Positions 13,518 to 43,125 of a stretch of DNA of 64,000 bases are shown here, piece by piece. Position numbers and translations under genes: made by a program. Source of the stretch: Candidatus Binataceae bacterium (GTDB lineage Bacteria; Desulfobacterota; Binatia; Binatales; Binataceae); contig JASHPB010000273.1 in the NCBI GenBank assembly GCA_030038355.1, positions 85,221-149,220 on the forward strand, read 5' to 3'. The notes beneath the pieces were generated by a model. The model had not been told where the DNA came from, searched no databases, and saw only the letters and a program-made list of their open reading frames with translations. Position 1 is the stretch's first letter; each line of letters starts with the position of its first letter.

Positions 13518-14993
13518 CTACGAACGCTCGCCGAAAATCTCCAGCAGCTCGACCATCCGCTTGATTCCCTCGCTTAGCTCGTTGACTCCGATACTCTCAT
13601 TCAGTCCATGGATACTCTCGGCTTCCGGGGCCGCGAGCTCAACCGGCATGAAGCCATAAGCGATGATCTTCTTCTGGCGGAAGAAATGACAGTCGGTGAA
13701 TCCGGGTAGCAGCAGCGGAGCGACAGGACACTTGTCGGTGTCTCGCGCCAGGGTTTCAATCGCCGTCATCAACTCCGAGCGCGAAGGCGACGACACGGGA
13801 GAAAAGTTCAGCAGCACCTCGACCTTGATCGAATCGTCGCCGATGACCTGCTTCAGGCTCTTGATGAACGCCTGTGGGTCGGAGCCGGGGAGCAGGCGGC
13901 AATCCAGTTCGGCATAGGCAGTTGCCGTCAGCATGTTCGTCTTCGGACTCCCCGAGAGAACGGTCGGTGTGATCGTATCGCGTATCTGCGCGTTCTGAAA
14001 CGGCACCTCGATAAACTTCTTCAGAAACTCGGGGTCCTTCAGCGAAGTATCGAGGTTGTAATACTCCTTGGGGCCGTGCTCGAGCTCCGCTTGCGTGCGA
14101 TATACGTCCTGTACAGGGCCAAGGATCCGAATCGGCGTTTGATAGGCGATCACCTTGTCCAGCGCGCGCACGAGCTTGGTCACTGCGGTGTCCGGCGGCG
14201 GCGTCGAAGGATGTCCCGCGGGGCCTTGAGCAGTGAGGCGAAGCCAAAGTGGCGTCTTCTCGGTCACCGACACGGCATAAAATCTCTTGCCGTTGTCGAG
14301 ATCGCGAATACCGCCGCCCTCATTCAAGAGAAAACCGGCATCCGCATAAACGTTGTGTTCGTGATCGACGAACCATCCCGCGCCGTTCTGGCCGCCGGCC
14401 TCTTCGTCGCCAGTGGCGACGAACAGCACATCGCGATTGAGCAGGATTCCGGCGCGCTTGATTGCAAGCATCGCCATCAGCTCCATCACGCCCATGCCCT
14501 TGTCATCGATCGCGCCACGGCCCCAGACCTTGCCGTCCTTCACCAGTCCTGAGAACGGCGGCACTTTCCATTCCTTGGCGACCGCAGGCACCACATCCAT
14601 GTGACTGAGAAGAATCAGAGCCTTGCTGTGTGTGCCGATCCCGCGCAGCCGCGCCGCGACGATCCCGCGCCCGGGCTGCGGCTCCCAGGTTGTCGCCGGG
14701 ATTCCATTTTCGAGGAATACATCCTTGAGCATCTTGGCCGCGGGCAATTCGTCCCCAGGAGGATTGCTCGTATTGATCTGGATGTACTTGGCAAGTAGGT
14801 TGGTTGCCTCCTGCGTGACTTTGTCCCAGTCAATTTCTTTCGGCGGCGGAGCCTTGCGCACCAGCGACGGATGCCTCGGAGTCACGGAATTGTCCTGCTC
14901 GGCAAGTGCTCGCGACGATGCGAAGCAAATCATCGCCGTGGCAATGGCAAGGAGTGCGATGAATGGCCGCGTCGGCAATCGAGCAGCCTTCAT
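13518..14993 (-). CDS. M20/M25/M40 family metallopeptidase, secreted
   Basis: It has a signal peptide. Typical M20 motifs are present: LSHMDVVP, GAIDDKG and GDEEAGG. The start overlaps the E2 stop by 4 nt. Confidence 0.85.
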   Translation of the reverse strand: MKAARLPTRPFIALLAIATAMICFASSRALAEQDNSVTPRHPSLVRKAPPPKEIDWDKVTQEATNLLAKYIQINTSNPPGDELPAAKMLKDVFLENGIPATTWEPQPGRGIVAARLRGIGTHSKALILLSHMDVVPAVAKEWKVPPFSGLVKDGKVWGRGAIDDKGMGVMELMAMLAIKRAGILLNRDVLFVATGDEEAGGQNGAGWFVDHEHNVYADAGFLLNEGGGIRDLDNGKRFYAVSVTEKTPLWLRLTAQGPAGHPSTPPPDTAVTKLVRALDKVIAYQTPIRILGPVQDVYRTQAELEHGPKEYYNLDTSLKDPEFLKKFIEVPFQNAQIRDTITPTVLSGSPKTNMLTATAYAELDCRLLPGSDPQAFIKSLKQVIGDDSIKVEVLLNFSPVSSPSRSELMTAIETLARDTDKCPVAPLLLPGFTDCHFFRQKKIIAYGFMPVELAAPEAESIHGLNESIGVNELSEGIKRMVELLEIFGERS

Positions 14994-16225
14994 CGCTCGC
15001 CGTAGTTCAGGATTTCGATCACAGTCTGAAGGAACTCTGCCGCAGGCGCCCCGTCGATCACGCGATGGTCAAATGTGAGGCTTAAGGTGAGCATCGCACG
15101 GCGGGTGATTTCGCCGCGATAGATTGCGGGCTTTTCGACGATTCGGCCGACGCCTAGGATTCCGGTCTCGCCAGGGTTTAAAATCGGCGTGAACGCGTCG
15201 ACACCGTACGTCCCGAGGTTGCTGATCGTGAACGTGCCGCCGTGCACGTCTTCGAGCCGAAGCCTCGATGCGTGCGCCTTCTCGGCGAGCGCCCGGCTCT
15301 CGACCGCGATCTCGCGGAGCGCGAGGCGATCAGCACTGCGAATCACGGGTACGATCAAACCTTCGTCGAGCGCGACGGCGATTCCGATATTGACCTCGGG
15401 GACTGAAATGATCACTTCGCCCTCGAGCCTAGCGTTCATCCGCGGATGCTTCAGCAGCGCGCGGGCGCACGCATGAACCAGCATGTCGGTGTATGTGAAA
15501 TCGAAATCGCGGGTGAGACGAGCGCGAAGCTCGGTCGCGGGCGTCACATCGGCTTCGGATGCGATCGTCAGCTGCGCGGATGTTTGCAAACTCTGATGCA
15601 TGCGCTCGGCAATCACCTTGCGCGCGCCACGCATCGCCGTACGCTTCGCGCCGGGCGCGGCAGTAGATGCGCGCGCCTGCGGCGCGGGCGCCGTCTTCGC
15701 TGCGGCCGGCGCCGCGCCTTCGCTGGCGGCGTGCTCGACGTCCTCGCGCGTCACGCGGCCACCGGGTCCTGTACCCGCAACGCGCGCGAGATCGACTCCG
15801 AGCTCTGCCGCGAGCTTGCGCGCGATAGGGCTCACGGCGCGGCGTGAGCCCACGCCTTGCGCTGTTGCAGAGGCGTTAGCCCCCGCATACGCAGCTGCAT
15901 GAGGGCGATGTGCGGCATGAGCATGATTGGAGACGGGCGAGGTCGCGGCGCGCCGATAGCGCGCCGCGACCTCGCCCACGTCCTCCCCGGGCTCGGCAAT
16001 CACGGCAACTGCGACGCCGCACTCGACGATCGCACCTTCATCGAAGAGCGCGACGGCGAGCGTGCCGCCCGCGGGCGATTCGACTTCGTAGAGAATCTTC
16101 TCGGTCTCGACTTCGTAGAGTGGCTCGCCCTGTTTGACGCTCTCACCCGGCGACTTGAAGAAGCGCTGGATCGTCCCCTCGTGCATCGTGAGCCCAAACT
16201 TGGGCATGGTCACTTCAACCGCCAC
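14990..16225 (-). CDS. 2-oxo-acid dehydrogenase E2 component (dihydrolipoamide acyltransferase)
   Basis: A lipoyl domain (EVETEKILYEVESPAGG) is followed by an E3-binding segment and then the catalytic domain with DHRVIDG. The inter-domain linker is unusually rich in His and Ala. Confidence 0.9.
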   Translation of the reverse strand: MAVEVTMPKFGLTMHEGTIQRFFKSPGESVKQGEPLYEVETEKILYEVESPAGGTLAVALFDEGAIVECGVAVAVIAEPGEDVGEVAARYRRAATSPVSNHAHAAHRPHAAAYAGANASATAQGVGSRRAVSPIARKLAAELGVDLARVAGTGPGGRVTREDVEHAASEGAAPAAAKTAPAPQARASTAAPGAKRTAMRGARKVIAERMHQSLQTSAQLTIASEADVTPATELRARLTRDFDFTYTDMLVHACARALLKHPRMNARLEGEVIISVPEVNIGIAVALDEGLIVPVIRSADRLALREIAVESRALAEKAHASRLRLEDVHGGTFTISNLGTYGVDAFTPILNPGETGILGVGRIVEKPAIYRGEITRRAMLTLSLTFDHRVIDGAPAAEFLQTVIEILNYGER

Positions 16226-16339
16226 AACTGGCCGCTTCCTTTCTTTCTATGCCATCGCTCGAATTGCGCCCTCGAGGGATTGATAGCTTGGCAATGCACT
16301 CATTGTTTCACGTTCGCCACAGTGTCAATTTCCATCCCA

Positions 16340-16527
16340 TCATCCTGAGCGCAGGCTTCCGAGCGAAGGATCTCGCGCGGTGCTTGCGCGCAATTTCTGC
16401 GCGAACAATTGAGCGTTTGGCGGATACTCGCGTGTCGGCGGTCGTCGAGCGTTGGTTGCCCCACCGACAAACCCGGGCGGGCGAGACCCTTCGACTCCGC
16501 TCGACGTCTCGCTTCGCTCAGGATGAC
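16340..16527. repeat. MITE-like repeat, copy 1, with 12-bp perfect terminal inverted repeats
   Basis: TCATCCTGAGCG at 16340-16351 is matched by CGCTCAGGATGA at 16515-16526. The interior holds a GCGAGAC/GTCTCGC stem and the palindrome TTGCGCGCAA. It is related to the second copy at 42143-42298. Confidence 0.5.
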
Positions 16528-16588
16528 CCAAGCCACGAATCCCGCGATCTCTGTCGAATCGTTCGTCCAATGAGTAGCTCCAGACTCT

Positions 16589-17560
16589 TCAGCGGCCCAT
16601 CAGGTCGCGAATCGCCGCTTCGATCCGATCCTCGCCGGGAATCGCCGCCTTCTCGAGCGGCGGGCTGAATGGGATCGGCACGTCGAGCGCGGTGACGCGT
16701 TTGATCGGCGCGTCGAGATGATCGAAGCCCTGCTCGGCGATCAGCGCGGCGATATCCGCTGCAGCGCCGCCACGTAGATGACCCTCGTCGGCGATCACGA
16801 CGCGGTTGGTCTTTTCAACCGACTCGAGCAGCGCCGTTTCATCGAGCGGAATCAGCGTGCGCGGATCGATAACCTCGACCGAGATACTTTCCTTGACGAG
16901 TTTGTCGGCGACCCTGAGCGCCTTCGGCACCATCGCTCCAATCGCGATCACAGTGACATTGTCGCCGGCGCGTTTAATGGCGGCTTTTCCGAGCGGTACG
17001 AGATGGTCACCCTCGGGGATTTCCTCGCGAAGCCGCCCCAGCGCGCCGTGCTCGAAGACGATCACGGGATTGTCGTCGCGAATCGCGCTCTTTAAGAGTC
17101 CTTTCATATCCGACGGGCTCGAGGGCACGACCAACTTGAGGCCAGGGACGCTCAAGAATTGTGCATAGACGGTTTCCGAGTGCTGCGCCGCCGCGCCGCC
17201 CATCGCGCCGTATACCGCGCGGAACGTTATCGGCAGGCTCGCCTGGCCGCCCGACATGTAGCGGAGCTTCGCCGCCTGATTACATACCTGATCGAACGCG
17301 CAATAGAAGAAGCTCGCGAACTCGACCTCGCAAATCGGGCGTGCTCCCGCCATCGCAGCGCCCACCGCCGCGCCGACGAAGCCCGCCTCCGAGATCGGAG
17401 TATTGCGCACGCGCGACGGCCCGAACTTGTCGATGAGTCCCTTGGTCGCGCCGAACGCGGCCAGCACGACGTCCTCGCCCATCAGGAAGGTGTTCGGGTC
17501 GCGCCTCATCTCTTCCGAAAGAGCCTGGTTGATCGCCTGGATAAAATTGGTTTGCGGCAT
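16589..17560 (-). CDS. 2-oxo-acid dehydrogenase E1 component, beta subunit
   Basis: A 323-aa ORF typical of the transketolase-like E1 beta family (MPQTNFIQAINQALSEEMRRDPNTFLMGEDV). Confidence 0.9.
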   Translation of the reverse strand: MPQTNFIQAINQALSEEMRRDPNTFLMGEDVVLAAFGATKGLIDKFGPSRVRNTPISEAGFVGAAVGAAMAGARPICEVEFASFFYCAFDQVCNQAAKLRYMSGGQASLPITFRAVYGAMGGAAAQHSETVYAQFLSVPGLKLVVPSSPSDMKGLLKSAIRDDNPVIVFEHGALGRLREEIPEGDHLVPLGKAAIKRAGDNVTVIAIGAMVPKALRVADKLVKESISVEVIDPRTLIPLDETALLESVEKTNRVVIADEGHLRGGAAADIAALIAEQGFDHLDAPIKRVTALDVPIPFSPPLEKAAIPGEDRIEAAIRDLMGR

Positions 17561-41268: not shown

Positions 41269-42048
41269 ATGCTCGACCTGAAAGGCAAAGCCGCAATCGT
41301 GACCGGCGGTACGCGCGGCCTCGGCCGCGCGATTTCCATTGAACTTGCGAAGCTCGGCGCGACCGTCGCGATGAACTATCGGCGCGACGAAGCAAGCGCC
41401 GAAAGCGCGCTCCGCGACGTGCGCGCGCTCTCGGCCAAATCAATTCTGATAAAAGCTAACCTCGAGGAAGACGGCGAGGTGCGCGCCATGGTCGCCGAGG
41501 CTGTCCGCGAGATGGGCCGGCTCGACATCCTGATCGCCAACGCGGCGGCGACCGCGTTCAAGCCTCTCCTCGAGATGAAGCCGCACAATCTCGCTCGCAC
41601 CTTCGCGCTCAGCGTCAACGGCTTCGTCGCCGCCGTGCAGGAAGCGACCAAGACGATGGGCCAGGGCGGCAGAATCCTGATGATCTCGGGAATCGATTCG
41701 ATCCGGAATCTGCCGCTCCATGGCGCGCTCGCCGCCGCCAAGGCCGCCCTGGAAGCCATGGTGCGCGACTTCGCGTTCGAGCTGGGGCCGCGCGGGATCA
41801 CCGTCAATGGCCTCAACTGCGGCTATATCGATACCGATTCCTCGCGTTACTACGCCGAAAAGCTGGGTGACACCTACGAGGAATTCAGCCGCCGATCGCG
41901 CGATCGATGCGCGCTGAAGCGCCTGCCGCGCCTCGAGGAGGTCGCGAGCGTGGCGGCGCTGCTGTGCCTGCCCGCGACCAGCTACCTGACGGCGCAGACG
42001 ATCATGGTTGACGGCGGCTTGAGTCTCGCCTTCCCCGCCACGCCTTAA
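41269..42048 (+). CDS. SDR-family oxidoreductase, FabI-like with H-x6-K spacing
   Basis: The cofactor-binding motif TGGTRGLGRA is present. The catalytic region reads LHGALAAAKAA. This places His where FabI-type enzymes have Tyr in the Y-x6-K motif. Confidence 0.85.
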   Translation: MLDLKGKAAIVTGGTRGLGRAISIELAKLGATVAMNYRRDEASAESALRDVRALSAKSILIKANLEEDGEVRAMVAEAVREMGRLDILIANAAATAFKPLLEMKPHNLARTFALSVNGFVAAVQEATKTMGQGGRILMISGIDSIRNLPLHGALAAAKAALEAMVRDFAFELGPRGITVNGLNCGYIDTDSSRYYAEKLGDTYEEFSRRSRDRCALKRLPRLEEVASVAALLCLPATSYLTAQTIMVDGGLSLAFPATP

Positions 42049-42142
42049 GAGAATCCGCCAGGCTGAGCTCTTTGTCATCAGACCGAAGGTCGCCCGAGTC
42101 GGGATCTTATTCGTCCCGCTTCACAACGAGTCCGGCGATCCT

Positions 42143-42298
42143 CTTGGCCGCTATCCTGAGCGAGCGCTGCGCGAGTCGAAAGATCCCCACGATCACCTTG
42201 CGTCACCCTTCAGCGTTGGCGAACGTACCACTCGAAAAAGCTGTGCTTTTTCGACTCCGTTCGCGGACTCGCTTGGCTCACAATGACGGAAAAAGACT
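42143..42298. repeat. MITE-like repeat, copy 2 (diverged)
   Basis: It shares TATCCTGAGCG...GAGTCGAAAGATC and ...TTCGACTCCGTTCG..CTCGCTTGGCTCACAATGAC with copy 1. It also carries a perfect hairpin, TCGAAAAAGC-TGT-GCTTTTTCGA, at about 42232-42254. Confidence 0.4.
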
Positions 42299-42318
42299 AA
42301 GCGCTTCTCTAGCGCCGG

Positions 42319-42347
42319 TGGGCGTCCGCGCCCGCTCTTTTTAGGCT
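42319..42347 (+). terminator. Intrinsic-terminator-like hairpin GGGCG-TCCG-CGCCC followed by GCTCTTTTT
   Basis: A GC-rich stem with a T-run on the plus strand. It lies 10 nt beyond the stop of the convergent minus-strand gene 42355..43125, so it may act as a bidirectional terminator. Confidence 0.4.
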
Positions 42348-42354
42348 CGCCGCG

Positions 42355-43125
42355 TTACGCTGCGGGCGTTATCTTGATGCGGATATTGCCCCACTTGCCG
42401 ATCGCGCCCTGGCCATGGCAGGAGACGCTGCCCTTACCGGGCGCGATGTCCTTTTCGCTCATGAGGCCGAGCGCGAGGATACACGCGCCGAGCTTGAACG
42501 GCACGTTCGAGTAGCGGCGAAGTTCGCTTCCGTCCGCAAGAAAGGTCACGCGCTCGGCGGGCGAGTCATAGATGATCTCGAAATGATGAAGTTGGCCGGG
42601 TGTCGTGGTTCCGCGCGTCTCTTCGAACAGACAGAAGTTACGCGGGCCGTGAGTCGGATCGACGATCGGCACTCCGGGGAAAGGCAGCTTGCCGTACACC
42701 GTGGCGAGCACGTCGTTGCCGACAAAGAAATCGAGCGCGGCGCCGGTCGAAAAATCCAGCACGTTGAACGACACGAAGGCGTCGTAGAGATCGCCGGGAG
42801 CGTTCTTCACGATCGTCGCGGCGAGATCGACCGAAAATGAAATTTTGCCACCCGGCGGACATGCGAAAGTGCGCGTCGAGAAGTACATGTGCTTGGCGTT
42901 GTCGAGGAATTGGACGGTGCTGTGCCCGCGCGTGTACGGCACGGCGGCCACACGCAGGAAACCGTCCTGCACGATGACGACGGCATCCGGCTCCTGGTAG
43001 CGCCAAAAGCCGCCATCCGGCTCCGGGAATCCGCCGATCGTCCAATCTCCCTCGCCGGTTATCGCCGAGGCGAAATTGCCGTAGTCGATGGTTTCTTCGC
43101 AGGATGAAGTCCGCTTATCGCTCAT
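42355..43125 (-). CDS. Hypothetical protein
   Basis: A 256-aa ORF, apparently soluble (MSDKRTSSCEETIDYGNF...). No motif was recognised. Confidence 0.65.
   Translation of the reverse strand: MSDKRTSSCEETIDYGNFASAITGEGDWTIGGFPEPDGGFWRYQEPDAVVIVQDGFLRVAAVPYTRGHSTVQFLDNAKHMYFSTRTFACPPGGKISFSVDLAATIVKNAPGDLYDAFVSFNVLDFSTGAALDFFVGNDVLATVYGKLPFPGVPIVDPTHGPRNFCLFEETRGTTTPGQLHHFEIIYDSPAERVTFLADGSELRRYSNVPFKLGACILALGLMSEKDIAPGKGSVSCHGQGAIGKWGNIRIKITPAA

What the first reader, a model, noticed from the sequence alone, without database searches (positions are those of the whole stretch)
42143..42298. Second, diverged copy of the same repeat family, with a perfect 10-bp-stem hairpin
The copy shares its left end with copy 1: ATCCTGAGCG, then about 12 nt, then CGAA(A/G)GATC. 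It also shares a roughly 38-nt right-end block, TTCGACTCCG...CTCGCTT.GCTCA..ATGAC.

The interior holds TCGAAAAAGC-TGT-GCTTTTTCGA. Twenty nucleotides downstream of the copy is a GGGCG/CGCCC hairpin followed by CTCTTTTT. That is a candidate bidirectional terminator for the convergent genes at 41269-42048 and 42355-43125.

The right-hand TIR is degenerate, which suggests an older, decaying insertion.
Basis: seen in the sequence. Interest (0 to 1): 0.5.

Follow-up and report, generated by a model that had tools for sequence, protein, structure and literature searches.

The report
Decayed Ssn-type hairpin repeat cluster
The flagged stretch is a worn-out cluster of short hairpin-forming DNA repeats from a family found across at least 17 bacterial phyla, a family that elsewhere flanks genes for small GIY-YIG nucleases; this is a new variant of a known kind, not a new kind of element.

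Summary
Every quoted string is at the stated coordinates, and the right-end similarity to the locus at 16340-16527 beats 1000/1000 shuffles.

The two loci share only 35-45-nt terminal units, not a common element body. The unit has these parts:
- a (C/T)GTC head
- a five-pair stem (A-T, T-A, then three covarying pairs)
- tandem G·A mismatches
- a variable inner hairpin that also covaries
- a C tail

Units mostly occur as heads-outward inverted pairs (113 vs 29 vs 27). The "perfect 10-bp hairpin" is the junction of two tail-to-tail units.

The closest relatives (Candidatus Binataceae) have 3-7 nt where the window has 306 nt, and 29 nt where locus 1 has 363 nt. Both spacers are therefore lineage-specific gains.

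The family fits the CGTC-tagged REP superfamily (Di Nocera 2013) and the Ssn-related motifs bound by GIY-YIG ssDNA nucleases (Chenal 2025). In other genomes, 8/8 small GIY-YIG genes examined are flanked by these units. The published SRM pattern misses this tandem-G·A subclass (0/393).

The window encodes no such nuclease, and most of its units carry defects. They are probably inert relics.

The MITE reading is partly supported. Interest is modest.

The parts
42049..42354 (.). Whole spacer between the convergent SDR (41269-42048 +) and DUF6081 (42355-43125 -) genes. It is a lineage-specific gain.
   Evidence: The orthologous pair is separated by 3 nt in L296 (93% aa, 87-88% nt identity) and by 7 nt in L297, L216, L254 and L276.
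42072..42108 (+). Possible fourth, strongly degenerate unit (GTCATC..AGA..CCGA...TCGGGATC).
   Evidence: Model R1 hit at 42071-42110: 12.3 bits, E 0.59. Not significant alone.
42151..42186 (+). Left unit (c2L): ATCCTGAGCG-AGCGCTGCGCGAGT-CGAAAGATC. The head is lost (GCT instead of GTC) and the stem has one C·A mismatch.
   Evidence: R1 hit at 42153-42189: 23.1 bits, E 0.0015. Sequence.
42200..42241 (+). Degenerate middle unit (c2M): CGTCACCCTTCAGCG...GCGAACG...TCGAAAAAGC. It is the inverted partner of c2R.
   Evidence: Shares CGTCA, GCGAACG and TCGAAAAAGC with the reverse complement of 42243-42287. 42196-42290 folds as one long imperfect palindrome (DNA z = -3.2, 0/200 shuffles).
42243..42287 (-). 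Right unit (c2R), degenerate: CGTCATTGTGAGCCAAGCGAGTCCGCGAACGGAGTCGAAAAAGC.
   Evidence: 31/38 identity to locus-1 right unit, 0/1000 shuffles reach it. R1 gives only 7.7 bits.
42232..42254 (.). Perfect 10-bp hairpin, formed by the tail-to-tail junction of c2M and c2R with a 3-nt spacer.
   Evidence: Inverted repeat I2, 100% complementary. Elsewhere the TCGAAGGATC/GATCCTTCGA tails of heads-outward pairs form the same kind of hairpin.
42290..42316 (-). Intrinsic-terminator-like site for the DUF6081 gene.
   Evidence: GGCGCTAGAGAAGCGCT followed by TAGTCTTTTT.
42317..42342 (+). Intrinsic-terminator-like site for the SDR transcript, which must first cross the repeat cluster.
   Evidence: GGTGGGCGTCCGCGCCCGCT followed by CTTTTT.
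16336..16376 (+). Locus 1, left unit (c1L). The head is mutated to ATC.
   Evidence: R1: 28.9 bits, E 6e-5.
16481..16530 (-). Locus 1, right unit (c1R). Nearly intact, with one G·T in the stem.
   Evidence: R1: 40.8 bits, E 9e-8.
16250..16585 (.). About 335 nt gained inside the E1beta-E2 2-oxoacid dehydrogenase operon spacer. It contains the locus-1 heads-outward pair.
   Evidence: The spacer is 29 nt in L304 (96% aa identity), about 70 nt in L305-L311, and 363 nt in the window. The 25 nt next to the E2 start are conserved.
3275..3324 (+). Third locus: a single degenerate unit (TGTCATCCTAGGCG...AGAGTCGGAGGATC).
   Evidence: R1: 14.0 bits, E 0.23. Lies in a roughly 660-nt stretch without long ORFs.

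Best explanation
The flagged region is a decayed cluster of REP-type hairpin units of the CGTC/TGTC-headed superfamily. This is the same kind of sequence as the Neisseria NTS/dRS3 and the 'Ssn-related motifs' (SRM).

Each unit is an imperfect palindrome. As single-stranded DNA it folds as follows:
- (C/T)GTC head
- A-T, T-A and three covarying pairs
- two sheared-type G·A mismatches
- G-C and C-G pairs
- an optional inner hairpin of any length
- an unpaired C tail

By analogy with N. meningitidis SsnA, a roughly 95-aa single-domain GIY-YIG nuclease binds this hairpin only as ssDNA and nicks a few nucleotides 5' of the head. In SsnA the tail C is critical for binding, the three head bases are critical for cleavage, and the loop is dispensable and extendable.

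Heads-outward pairs of units have the same architecture as the unit-nuclease gene-unit cassette. They are most likely gene-less derivatives of that cassette that spread into permissive intergenic sites.

In this Candidatus Binataceae genome, two such insertions were gained recently relative to sequenced relatives. One lies inside the E1beta-E2 operon spacer and one lies between the convergent SDR and DUF6081 genes. They have since accumulated defects in head or stem. At 42143-42298 they are probably inert relics. Their only likely present effect is to add stem-loops to the SDR 3' UTR upstream of two back-to-back terminators.

Shown here: family membership, secondary-structure covariation, heads-outward arrangement, association with GIY-YIG genes in other genomes, and lineage-specific gain.

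Inferred: Ssn binding and cleavage of this subclass, and the mobilisation mechanism.
For: 1. Family reality and spread.
- 85-87% of matches also carry the GTC head, which was not in the pattern (1.6% expected by chance).
- GTC-headed matches come from at least 17 phyla.
- A relaxed regex gives 513 hits against 10 in reversed-sequence controls, and 441 against 0 with the head required.

2. Structure.
- The inner three pairs of the outer stem are fully Watson-Crick in 422/465 units, with at least 9 complementary combinations.
- The inner hairpin is 94.7% paired with GC, CG, AU and UA types. Every change is double-sided. Covariation score is 0.246 against 0.085 in shuffles (0/500).

3. Arrangement. 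113 heads-outward pairs, 29 tails-outward and 27 tandem, with 4-155-nt spacers.

4. Window hits with a model built only from other genomes: 40.8, 28.9 and 23.1 bits.

5. Gain. Spacers are 3-7 nt against 306 nt, and 29-71 nt against 363 nt. An unrelated heads-outward pair sits 22 nt after the DUF6081 stop in L229.

6. Nuclease link.
- Small GIY-YIG genes or pseudogenes in L118, L126 and L134 are each flanked by units.
- Five homologues chosen only by protein similarity (L299-L303, different phyla) all have model hits on both sides, within 1-180 nt. Heads-outward flanks are seen in 6 of the 8 cases.

7. Literature.
- CGTC REPs have TGTC variants, stems starting with A-T, T-A pairs, mainly HH dimers, and no Y1 transposase (PMC3733652).
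- SsnA/NTS determinants and the NTS-ssnA-NTS layout are described in PMC11893778.
- The conserved head, the tail C (about 99% without being required) and the variable loop mirror the SsnA determinants.
Against: - No GIY-YIG gene is present in the 64-kb window or in about 360 kb of Binataceae-like contigs. A cognate nuclease in this genome is therefore unproven.
- The published SRM search pattern matches 0/393 of these units and nothing in the window.
- Membership of the flanked proteins in CDD family cd10448 was not tested directly.
- No Ssn has been shown to transpose anything.
- The gained DNA is larger than the unit pairs, and the exact junctions could not be defined.
- Single units are not thermodynamically exceptional (DNA fold z between -1.1 and +1.25).
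- c2R and c2M are too degenerate to score on their own.
Confidence: 0.72

Rival explanations
1. A classical MITE. In this reading it is a non-autonomous cut-and-paste element whose terminal inverted repeats are recognised as double-stranded DNA by a DDE transposase encoded elsewhere, and the flagged copy is an old, decaying insertion.
For: Inverted terminal blocks are shared by two loci. Both loci are absent from close relatives.
Against: - The interior is unrelated between the two loci.
- The gained DNA (306 and about 335 nt) extends well beyond the inverted blocks, and no target duplication is visible.
- Each 'TIR' is itself a hairpin with compensatory changes. A dsDNA-binding transposase would not select for that.
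- Units occur alone, in tandem and in arrays.
- The only gene repeatedly bracketed by them is a GIY-YIG nuclease, not a DDE transposase.
Confidence: 0.06
2. A REPIN. In this reading it is a pair of REP sequences mobilised by a REP-associated tyrosine (HUH/Y1) transposase (RAYT).
For: - REP-like size, and an inverted-pair organisation like REPINs/BIMEs.
- Relatives of this lineage do carry a Y1_Tnp gene flanked by REPs, and it sits in the very same DUF6081/SDR spacer (L248).
Against: - That Y1 gene is flanked by a different, GTAG-headed REP (GTAGGGCCGCCG...), and this REP is absent from the window.
- The units here have a (C/T)GTC head, not GTAG/GTGG.
- CGTC REPs were reported not to flank Y1 transposase genes (PMC3733652).
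- 8/8 GIY-YIG genes examined are flanked by the units.
Confidence: 0.07
3. A structured RNA element that acts in the transcript. Examples would be a 3'-end stabiliser, a processing site, or a protein-binding tandem-G·A (kink-turn-like) motif. Repetition would reflect reuse rather than mobility.
For: - Both window loci lie in transcribed spacers, one intercistronic and one in a 3' UTR ahead of terminators.
- Covariation and conserved G·A pairs are present.
- Di Nocera et al. argue that many REPs act as RNA.
Against: - No Rfam family matches, even on canonical copies.
- There are no single-sided (G-U) intermediates in any covarying pair. G·T and C·A departures in the outer stem are equal (9 vs 8).
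- Units are mostly in inverted pairs, so half are antisense in any transcript.
- They flank nuclease genes on both sides with heads outward.
- SsnA does not bind RNA.
- A secondary RNA-level effect is not excluded.
Confidence: 0.1
4. Chance similarity between two GC-rich intergenic regions.
For: The window has many 70-75% two-copy 'families' of 30-40 nt. c2R alone scores 7.7 bits.
Against: 0/1000 shuffles and 0/172 real tiles reach the observed score. Three window units are found by a model trained on other genomes, at E 9e-8 to 1.5e-3.
Confidence: 0.01

Closest known systems
CGTC-tagged REP superfamily (Di Nocera, De Gregorio & Rocco 2013, PMC3733652). Includes Neisseria dRS3 and Rickettsia RPE-4/RPE-6.
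   Same: - A CGTC/TGTC head.
- Stem opening with complementary A-T, T-A pairs.
- A short unpaired tail.
- Predominance of heads-outward (HH) dimers.
- Location between unidirectional and convergent genes.
- No associated Y1 transposase.
   Different: - The published families have continuous 8-9-bp stems and 4-5-nt loops. They were collected allowing at most one stem mismatch.
- Here the stem is 5 bp, then two G·A mismatches, then 2 bp, with an inner hairpin of 0 to more than 30 nt.
- The published spread was 5 phyla. This subclass is in at least 17.
NTS / Ssn-related motifs and the Ssn GIY-YIG ssDNA nucleases (Chenal et al. 2025, PMC11893778).
   Same: - GTC immediately 5' of the hairpin, and a C immediately 3' of it.
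- The loop is irrelevant and extendable.
- Units bracket a roughly 95-aa single-domain GIY-YIG gene (motif-gene-motif).
- Hundreds of copies in some genomes.
   Different: - The published degenerate SRM pattern matches none of 393 units of this subclass.
- The tandem G·A pairs and long inserts are not part of that definition.
- No biochemical test exists for this subclass.
- No ssn gene was seen in the window.
REPINs/BIMEs with RAYT (Y1/HUH) transposases.
   Same: - Short imperfect palindromes with a conserved 5' tetranucleotide.
- Inverted pairs separated by a short spacer.
- A single-copy enzyme gene flanked by the same repeats.
- Probably act as ssDNA hairpins.
   Different: - The head is GTAG/GTGG, not (C/T)GTC.
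- The enzyme is an HUH tyrosine transposase, not GIY-YIG.
- REP sequences are usually lineage-specific, whereas this unit is nearly identical across phyla.
MITEs (for example Correia/NEMIS, Nezha).
   Same: Small, non-coding, bounded by inverted repeats, intergenic, with presence/absence differences between relatives.
   Different: No target-site duplication. No conserved interior. The ends are themselves hairpins with covariation. No DDE transposase partner.

Membership tests
CGTC-tagged REP superfamily | Unpaired 5' tag CGTC (variants TGTC, CCTC). | tested here: met
   Heads across the family: TGTC 361, CGTC 72, GGTC 8. In the window, c2R and c2M have CGTC and c1R has GGTC. c1L (CATC) and c2L (CGCT) have lost it.
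CGTC-tagged REP superfamily | Stem begins with complementary A-T, T-A pairs. | tested here: met
   Columns 7-46 (AU) and 8-45 (UA) are invariant in 58/58 sequences. Present in c1L and c2L. c1R has a T·G at the second pair.
CGTC-tagged REP superfamily | Continuous stem of 8-9 bp with a loop of 4-5 nt. | tested here: not met
   5 bp, then tandem G·A, then 2 bp, with an inner segment of 5-50 nt.
CGTC-tagged REP superfamily | Units mostly in HH dimers (tags outside). | tested here: met
   113 HH, 29 TT, 27 HT. Both window loci are HH.
CGTC-tagged REP superfamily | Located between unidirectional or convergent genes. | tested here: met
   Locus 1 lies between co-directional E1beta and E2. Locus 2 lies between convergent SDR and DUF6081. 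Only the window loci were assessed.
Ssn-related motif (SRM) / NTS | Matches the published degenerate sequence HGTCWYN(0-2)YYVSBRHN(0-5)WNVSBRGN(0-2)RNCYNB. | tested here: not met
   0 of 393 unique units match, and there are no matches in the window.
Ssn-related motif (SRM) / NTS | Hairpin with three conserved bases 5' of the palindrome (cleavage determinant) and a C immediately 3' of it (binding determinant). Loop is free. | tested here: met
   GTC is present in 441/513 relaxed hits, and the tail C in about 99%, without either being required. The inner segment is variable. Determinants are from PMC11893778.
Ssn-related motif (SRM) / NTS | Units flank genes for small single-domain GIY-YIG (Ssn) nucleases. 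| tested here: met
   8/8 GIY-YIG genes or pseudogenes examined in other genomes are flanked. None was found in the window or in about 360 kb of related contigs.
Ssn-related motif (SRM) / NTS | The flanked protein belongs to CDD cd10448 (GIY-YIG_unchar_3). | not tested
   No CDD library or SsnA sequence was available. The proteins are 93-105 aa and carry PF01541 only. Their Tyr-Tyr-Glu spacing (Y9, Y19, E67) is close to that of SsnA (Y6, Y17, E64).
Ssn-related motif (SRM) / NTS | Strand-specific binding and cleavage as ssDNA by the cognate nuclease. | not testable with these tools
   Requires biochemistry.
MITE | Target-site duplication at the insertion boundaries. | tested here: inconclusive
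   Empty sites in relatives (87-88% nt identity at locus 2; 96% aa identity at locus 1) show the gain but not exact junctions. No direct repeat is evident.
MITE | Copies share the whole element, not only the ends. | tested here: not met
   The alignment of the two loci matches only the terminal units.
REPIN/RAYT | GTAG/GTGG head, and a RAYT gene flanked by the same REP. | tested here: not met
   The head is (C/T)GTC. The Y1_Tnp gene in relative L248 is flanked by a different, GTAG-headed REP.
Any Rfam RNA family | Covariance-model match. | tested here: not met
   Nothing at gathering threshold in the window. Nothing relevant at E up to 10 at either locus. No hit at unit positions in five unit-rich loci.
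Intrinsic terminators | GC-rich stem-loop followed by a T-run. | tested here: met
   + strand 42317-42342 and - strand 42316-42290. Function is untested.

The most novel reading that the evidence does not exclude
The tandem-G·A, insert-tolerant unit defines a distinct, nearly pan-bacterial lineage of Ssn/SRM systems. It is found in at least 17 phyla, its nucleases are about 60% identical across phyla, and both published search definitions miss it. In this reading, the unit-GIY-YIG gene-unit cassette is an active mobile element acting on ssDNA. Heads-outward unit pairs would be its non-autonomous, MITE-like derivatives. That would be the first transposon-like system driven by a GIY-YIG nuclease.
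Probability: 0.25. Interest if true: 0.6.

Novelty: new variant of a known kind. Interest (0 to 1): 0.35.

Why it matters
For this genome it matters little. The flagged copy is a decaying relic that mainly lengthens a 3' UTR and could mislead gene callers, because a spurious 90-aa ORF (42072-42344) spans it.

More broadly, the analysis links an extremely widespread repeat to the recently discovered Ssn ssDNA nucleases. This repeat is the source of the VILSEAKDL-like and SAQDD-like peptides that appear when units are translated. The analysis also shows that the published motif definitions miss a large subclass with G·A mismatches and extendable inner hairpins. That widens the set of candidate nuclease/site pairs for ssDNA tools. 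It also gives testable material for the open question of how CGTC-type REPs, which lack a transposase, spread.

Tried and rejected
- Rfam scans found nothing relevant. These covered the whole window at gathering threshold, both loci at E up to 10, and five unit-rich loci at E up to 1.
- I checked by eye for hammerhead, kink-turn, box C/D and attC resemblance. The order and identity of the conserved bases do not fit, and the units are too short and too closely spaced for gene cassettes.
- A literature search for the raw sequence and for the pseudo-peptide strings returned only unrelated primer matches.
- An exact-sequence look-up of the SDR protein found no record.
- My first GIY-YIG regex was too strict and gave 0 hits. 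A looser regex plus tblastn worked.
- Folding single units as DNA gave no excess stability. The structural claim therefore rests on covariation, not energy.
- The published SRM pattern gave no matches.
- A PDB sequence search with the flanked nuclease found only distant UPF0213 proteins.
- No GTAG-type REP of the kind seen in relatives occurs in the window.
- A batch fold request failed because the sequences were too long.

Full report
**Observation**

The region 42143-42298 lies in the 306-nt spacer between two convergent genes. One is a short-chain dehydrogenase (41269-42048, +). The other is a DUF6081 protein (42355-43125, -).
- ATCCTGAGCG at 42153, then 14 nt, then CGAAAGATC.
- The block TTCGACTCCG...ATGAC at 42250-42287.
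- The perfect inverted repeat TCGAAAAAGC-TGT-GCTTTTTCGA at 42232-42254.
- A GC-rich hairpin with a T-run at 42317-42342.

'Copy 1' is at 16340-16527. It lies in the spacer between the E1beta (16589-17560, -) and E2 (14990-16225, -) genes of a 2-oxoacid dehydrogenase operon.

The right-end blocks of the two loci are 31/38 identical. The best local alignment scores 41. Dinucleotide shuffles give mean 21.7, sd 2.8 and maximum 37 (0/1000 reach 41). So do 0/172 real tiles of the same window. The similarity is not chance.

The terminator is not one bidirectional hairpin. It is two adjacent terminator-like sites, one per strand (42317-42342 + and 42316-42290 -).

**What is actually shared**

A global alignment shows that the interiors of the two loci are unrelated. 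Only a 35-45-nt unit is shared. It is present once in each orientation at each locus:
- c1L 16340-16374 (+)
- c1R 16488-16527 (-)
- c2L 42151-42186 (+)
- c2R 42243-42287 (-)

The unit reads (C/T)GTC-AT-YYY-GA-GCG...(A)G(T)C-GA-RRR-AT-C.

**The family elsewhere**

The core pattern ATCCTGAGCG-N6-30-CGAARGATC was found in 95 IMG/VR stretches.

A pattern of this length would give some chance matches in 596 Gb. However, 85-87% of matches also carry the GTC head, which was not in the pattern (1.6% expected). GTC-headed matches come from at least 17 phyla:
- Acidobacteriota, Bacteroidota, Pseudomonadota, Patescibacteria, Bacillota, Actinomycetota
- Fibrobacterota, Verrucomicrobiota, Gemmatimonadota, Omnitrophota, Dormibacterota, Armatimonadota
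- Planctomycetota, Myxococcota, Binatota, Cyanobacteria, Spirochaetota

A relaxed search (AT-NNN-GA...GA-NNN-AT with complementary NNN) gives 513 hits in 1.8 Mb. Reversed-sequence controls give 10. With the head required, the counts are 441 and 0.

**Structure**

Without requiring complementarity, the three inner pairs of the outer stem are fully Watson-Crick in 422 of 465 units. At least nine complementary combinations occur (CCT/AGG, TCT/AGA, CCC/GGG, TTC/GAA and others).

The middle of the unit varies from 5 to 50 nt. In a 58-sequence alignment it forms an inner hairpin that is 94.7% paired. The pair types are GC, CG, AU and UA. All departures are double-sided. The covariation score is 0.246 against 0.085 in shuffles (0/500), and the signal collapses when the partner column is slid.

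Between the two stems lie invariant G·A/A·G juxtapositions and a G-C, C-G step, with an optional bulged T.

Two features favour a DNA hairpin over an RNA one. No pair shows a single-sided (G-U type) change. G·T and C·A departures in the outer stem are equally frequent (9 vs 8).

Single units are not unusually stable by nearest-neighbour energies. The structural claim therefore rests on covariation.

No Rfam family matches, even on canonical copies.

**Arrangement**

Neighbouring units within 400 nt fall into three classes:
- 113 heads-outward pairs, with spacers of 4-155 nt and modes near 22 and 39
- 29 tails-outward pairs
- 27 tandem pairs

Both window loci are heads-outward.

In such pairs the two tails (TCGAAGGATC and GATCCTTCGA) form a hairpin. 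At locus 2 the 'perfect 10-bp hairpin' is this same junction. 42200-42241 is a third, degenerate unit (CGTCACCCTTCAGCG...GCGAACG...TCGAAAAAGC). It faces c2R across a 3-nt spacer. Together, 42196-42290 folds as one long imperfect palindrome (DNA z = -3.2).

**Census in the window**

I built a covariance model from 58 units of other genomes (R1). It finds the following in the window:

| Unit | Coordinates | Bits | E-value |
|---|---|---|---|
| c1R | 16481-16530 (-) | 40.8 | 9e-8 |
| c1L | 16336-16376 (+) | 28.9 | 6e-5 |
| c2L | 42153-42189 (+) | 23.1 | 0.0015 |
| further degenerate unit | 3275-3324 (+) | 14.0 | 0.23 |
| possible unit | 42071-42110 (+) | 12.3 | 0.59 |
| c2R | 42241-42290 (-) | 7.7 | not significant |

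Apart from c1R, the units carry a lost head (c1L, c2L) or broken outer-stem pairs (c2L, c2R, c2M). c1R has one G·T pair in its stem.

**Source and gain**

Homologues of the flanking genes are annotated as Candidatus Binataceae.

For locus 2, 32 metagenomic loci keep the convergent DUF6081/SDR pair. The spacer is 7 nt in three of them. In the others it is 26-79 nt or holds unrelated inserted genes. In the closest relative (L296; 93% aa identity, 87-88% nt identity) the two stop codons are 3 nt apart. In L297 they are 7 nt apart. The entire 306-nt spacer, repeats and terminators included, is therefore a gain of the window's lineage.

One other lineage (L229) has a different heads-outward pair 22 nt after the DUF6081 stop. 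This looks like an independent arrival at the same permissive site.

For locus 1, the E1beta-E2 spacer is 29 nt in L304 (96% aa identity) and about 70 nt in seven other contigs. It is 363 nt in the window. The 25 nt next to the E2 start are conserved, and about 335 nt have been added after the E1beta stop.

In both cases the added DNA is larger than the unit pair. No target duplication could be defined.

Units are rare in this clade. There are 4 model hits in 359 kb of related contigs. One Binataceae contig (L163) has an intact pair scoring 45 and 42 bits.

**Comparison with what is known**

Di Nocera et al. (PMC3733652) defined a CGTC-tagged REP superfamily. Its features are as follows:
- the tag is often TGTC
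- stems open with complementary A-T, T-A pairs
- there is a short unpaired tail
- units are mostly in HH dimers
- they lie between unidirectional or convergent genes
- there is no associated Y1 transposase
- Neisseria dRS3 and Rickettsia RPE-4/6 belong to it

The present unit meets all of these except the continuous 8-9-bp stem with a 4-5-nt loop.

Chenal et al. (PMC11893778) showed the following:
- The Neisseria NTS (CGTCATTCCCGCG...GCGGGAATC) is bound only as ssDNA by SsnA, a 94-aa single-domain GIY-YIG nuclease, and is cut a few nucleotides upstream.
- The C just after the palindrome is critical for binding, and the three bases before it are critical for cleavage.
- The loop can be removed or extended.
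- ssn genes are typically bracketed by such motifs.

The conserved head, the tail C and the free inner segment of the present unit mirror those determinants.

**Testing the nuclease link**

A motif search and tblastn over all fetched DNA found three small GIY-YIG genes near units. One is intact (L118) and two are pseudogenes (L126, L134). Each is flanked by model hits.

I then took five homologues of the L118 protein, chosen only by protein similarity and contig length. They come from different lineages, including Gracilibacteria, Chloroflexota and Bacteroidales. All five have units on both sides within 1-180 nt. Over all eight cases, six show the clean heads-outward layout.

The proteins are about 60% identical across phyla. 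This parallels the near-identity of the units.

Four limits apply:
- The published SRM pattern matches none of 393 units.
- cd10448 membership was not tested.
- No such gene is in the window or in the related contigs.
- Nobody has shown that Ssn moves DNA.

**Mechanism**

Most likely, the units are ssDNA hairpin sites of Ssn-type nucleases. Heads-outward pairs are most likely gene-less derivatives of unit-gene-unit cassettes that entered permissive spacers. At 42143-42298 they have decayed.

Their present effect is probably limited to RNA or DNA stem-loops in the SDR 3' UTR. The DUF6081 transcript meets its own terminator before reaching them.

The rivals are weighed in their own section: a DDE MITE, a RAYT REPIN, a purely RNA element, and chance.

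**Verdict**

The element is a new variant (tandem G·A pairs, insert-tolerant) of a known kind (CGTC-REP / Ssn-related motif), and here it is present as relics. Interest is modest for this locus. It is higher for the family-level link to the nuclease.

Noticed in passing
L248:3775-4604 (also L243), the orthologous DUF6081/SDR spacer in relatives: A Y1_Tnp (IS200/RAYT-like) gene (L248 4036-4494, -) sits in the same spacer. It is bracketed by several copies of a different, GTAG-headed REP (CAGTAGGGCCGCCGTCCCGGCGGCC). The same REP flanks the unit pair in the Binataceae contig L163. It is absent from the window.
   Followed up: partly
window 3275-3324 (+): A third, single, degenerate unit (TGTCATCCTAGGCG...AGAGTCGGAGGATC; 14 bits, E 0.23). 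It lies in a roughly 660-nt stretch (about 2900-3560) without long ORFs.
   Followed up: partly
L229:3791-3895: An unrelated heads-outward unit pair (ATACT/ATTCT type) lies 22 nt after the DUF6081 stop codon in another lineage (78% aa identity). This suggests repeated, independent arrival at the same intergenic site.
   Followed up: partly
L299 (GCA_942493375.1, 8.2-Mb chromosome, 5818456-5821773): An array of more than 25 unit hits in 3.3 kb, alternating in orientation with about 130-175-nt periodicity. It surrounds an intact GIY-YIG gene.
   Followed up: no
L300:1501-1791 (Candidatus Gracilibacteria): The flanked GIY-YIG gene has several in-frame TGA codons under table 11. This is consistent with the alternative code (TGA = Gly) of this lineage, so it is not a pseudogene.
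   Followed up: no
L126:6817-7077 and L134:2709-2983 (Acidobacteriaceae): GIY-YIG genes carry a premature stop (L126) or a frameshift (L134) but are still flanked by high-scoring units. These are decaying nuclease cassettes.
   Followed up: partly
L043 (IMG/VR contig), 8 units: Seven of eight units share a longer repeat (about 170 nt). It comprises a roughly 40-nt upstream block (TAAATGATCGTTTA...), an ATCCT-type unit, a 39-nt spacer and an inverted ATTCT-type unit. All are on one strand, between genes of a putative viral contig.
   Followed up: no
window 42072-42344 (+): A 90-aa ORF (TTG start) spans the whole repeat cluster and would be a spurious 'hypothetical protein'. In L118 the nuclease ORF runs into a unit and ends in ...NSAQDD, the typical pseudo-peptide of these repeats.
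   Followed up: no
L262, L265, L266, L270 (orthologous spacer): A conserved small ORF (MAAV..RILTAKEVADYLRCHISTVYRLAKTGKLPGFRLGADWRFREDALQNWL, helix-turn-helix/excisionase-like) occupies the same spacer in four other relatives. The site is a hotspot for insertions of several kinds.
   Followed up: no
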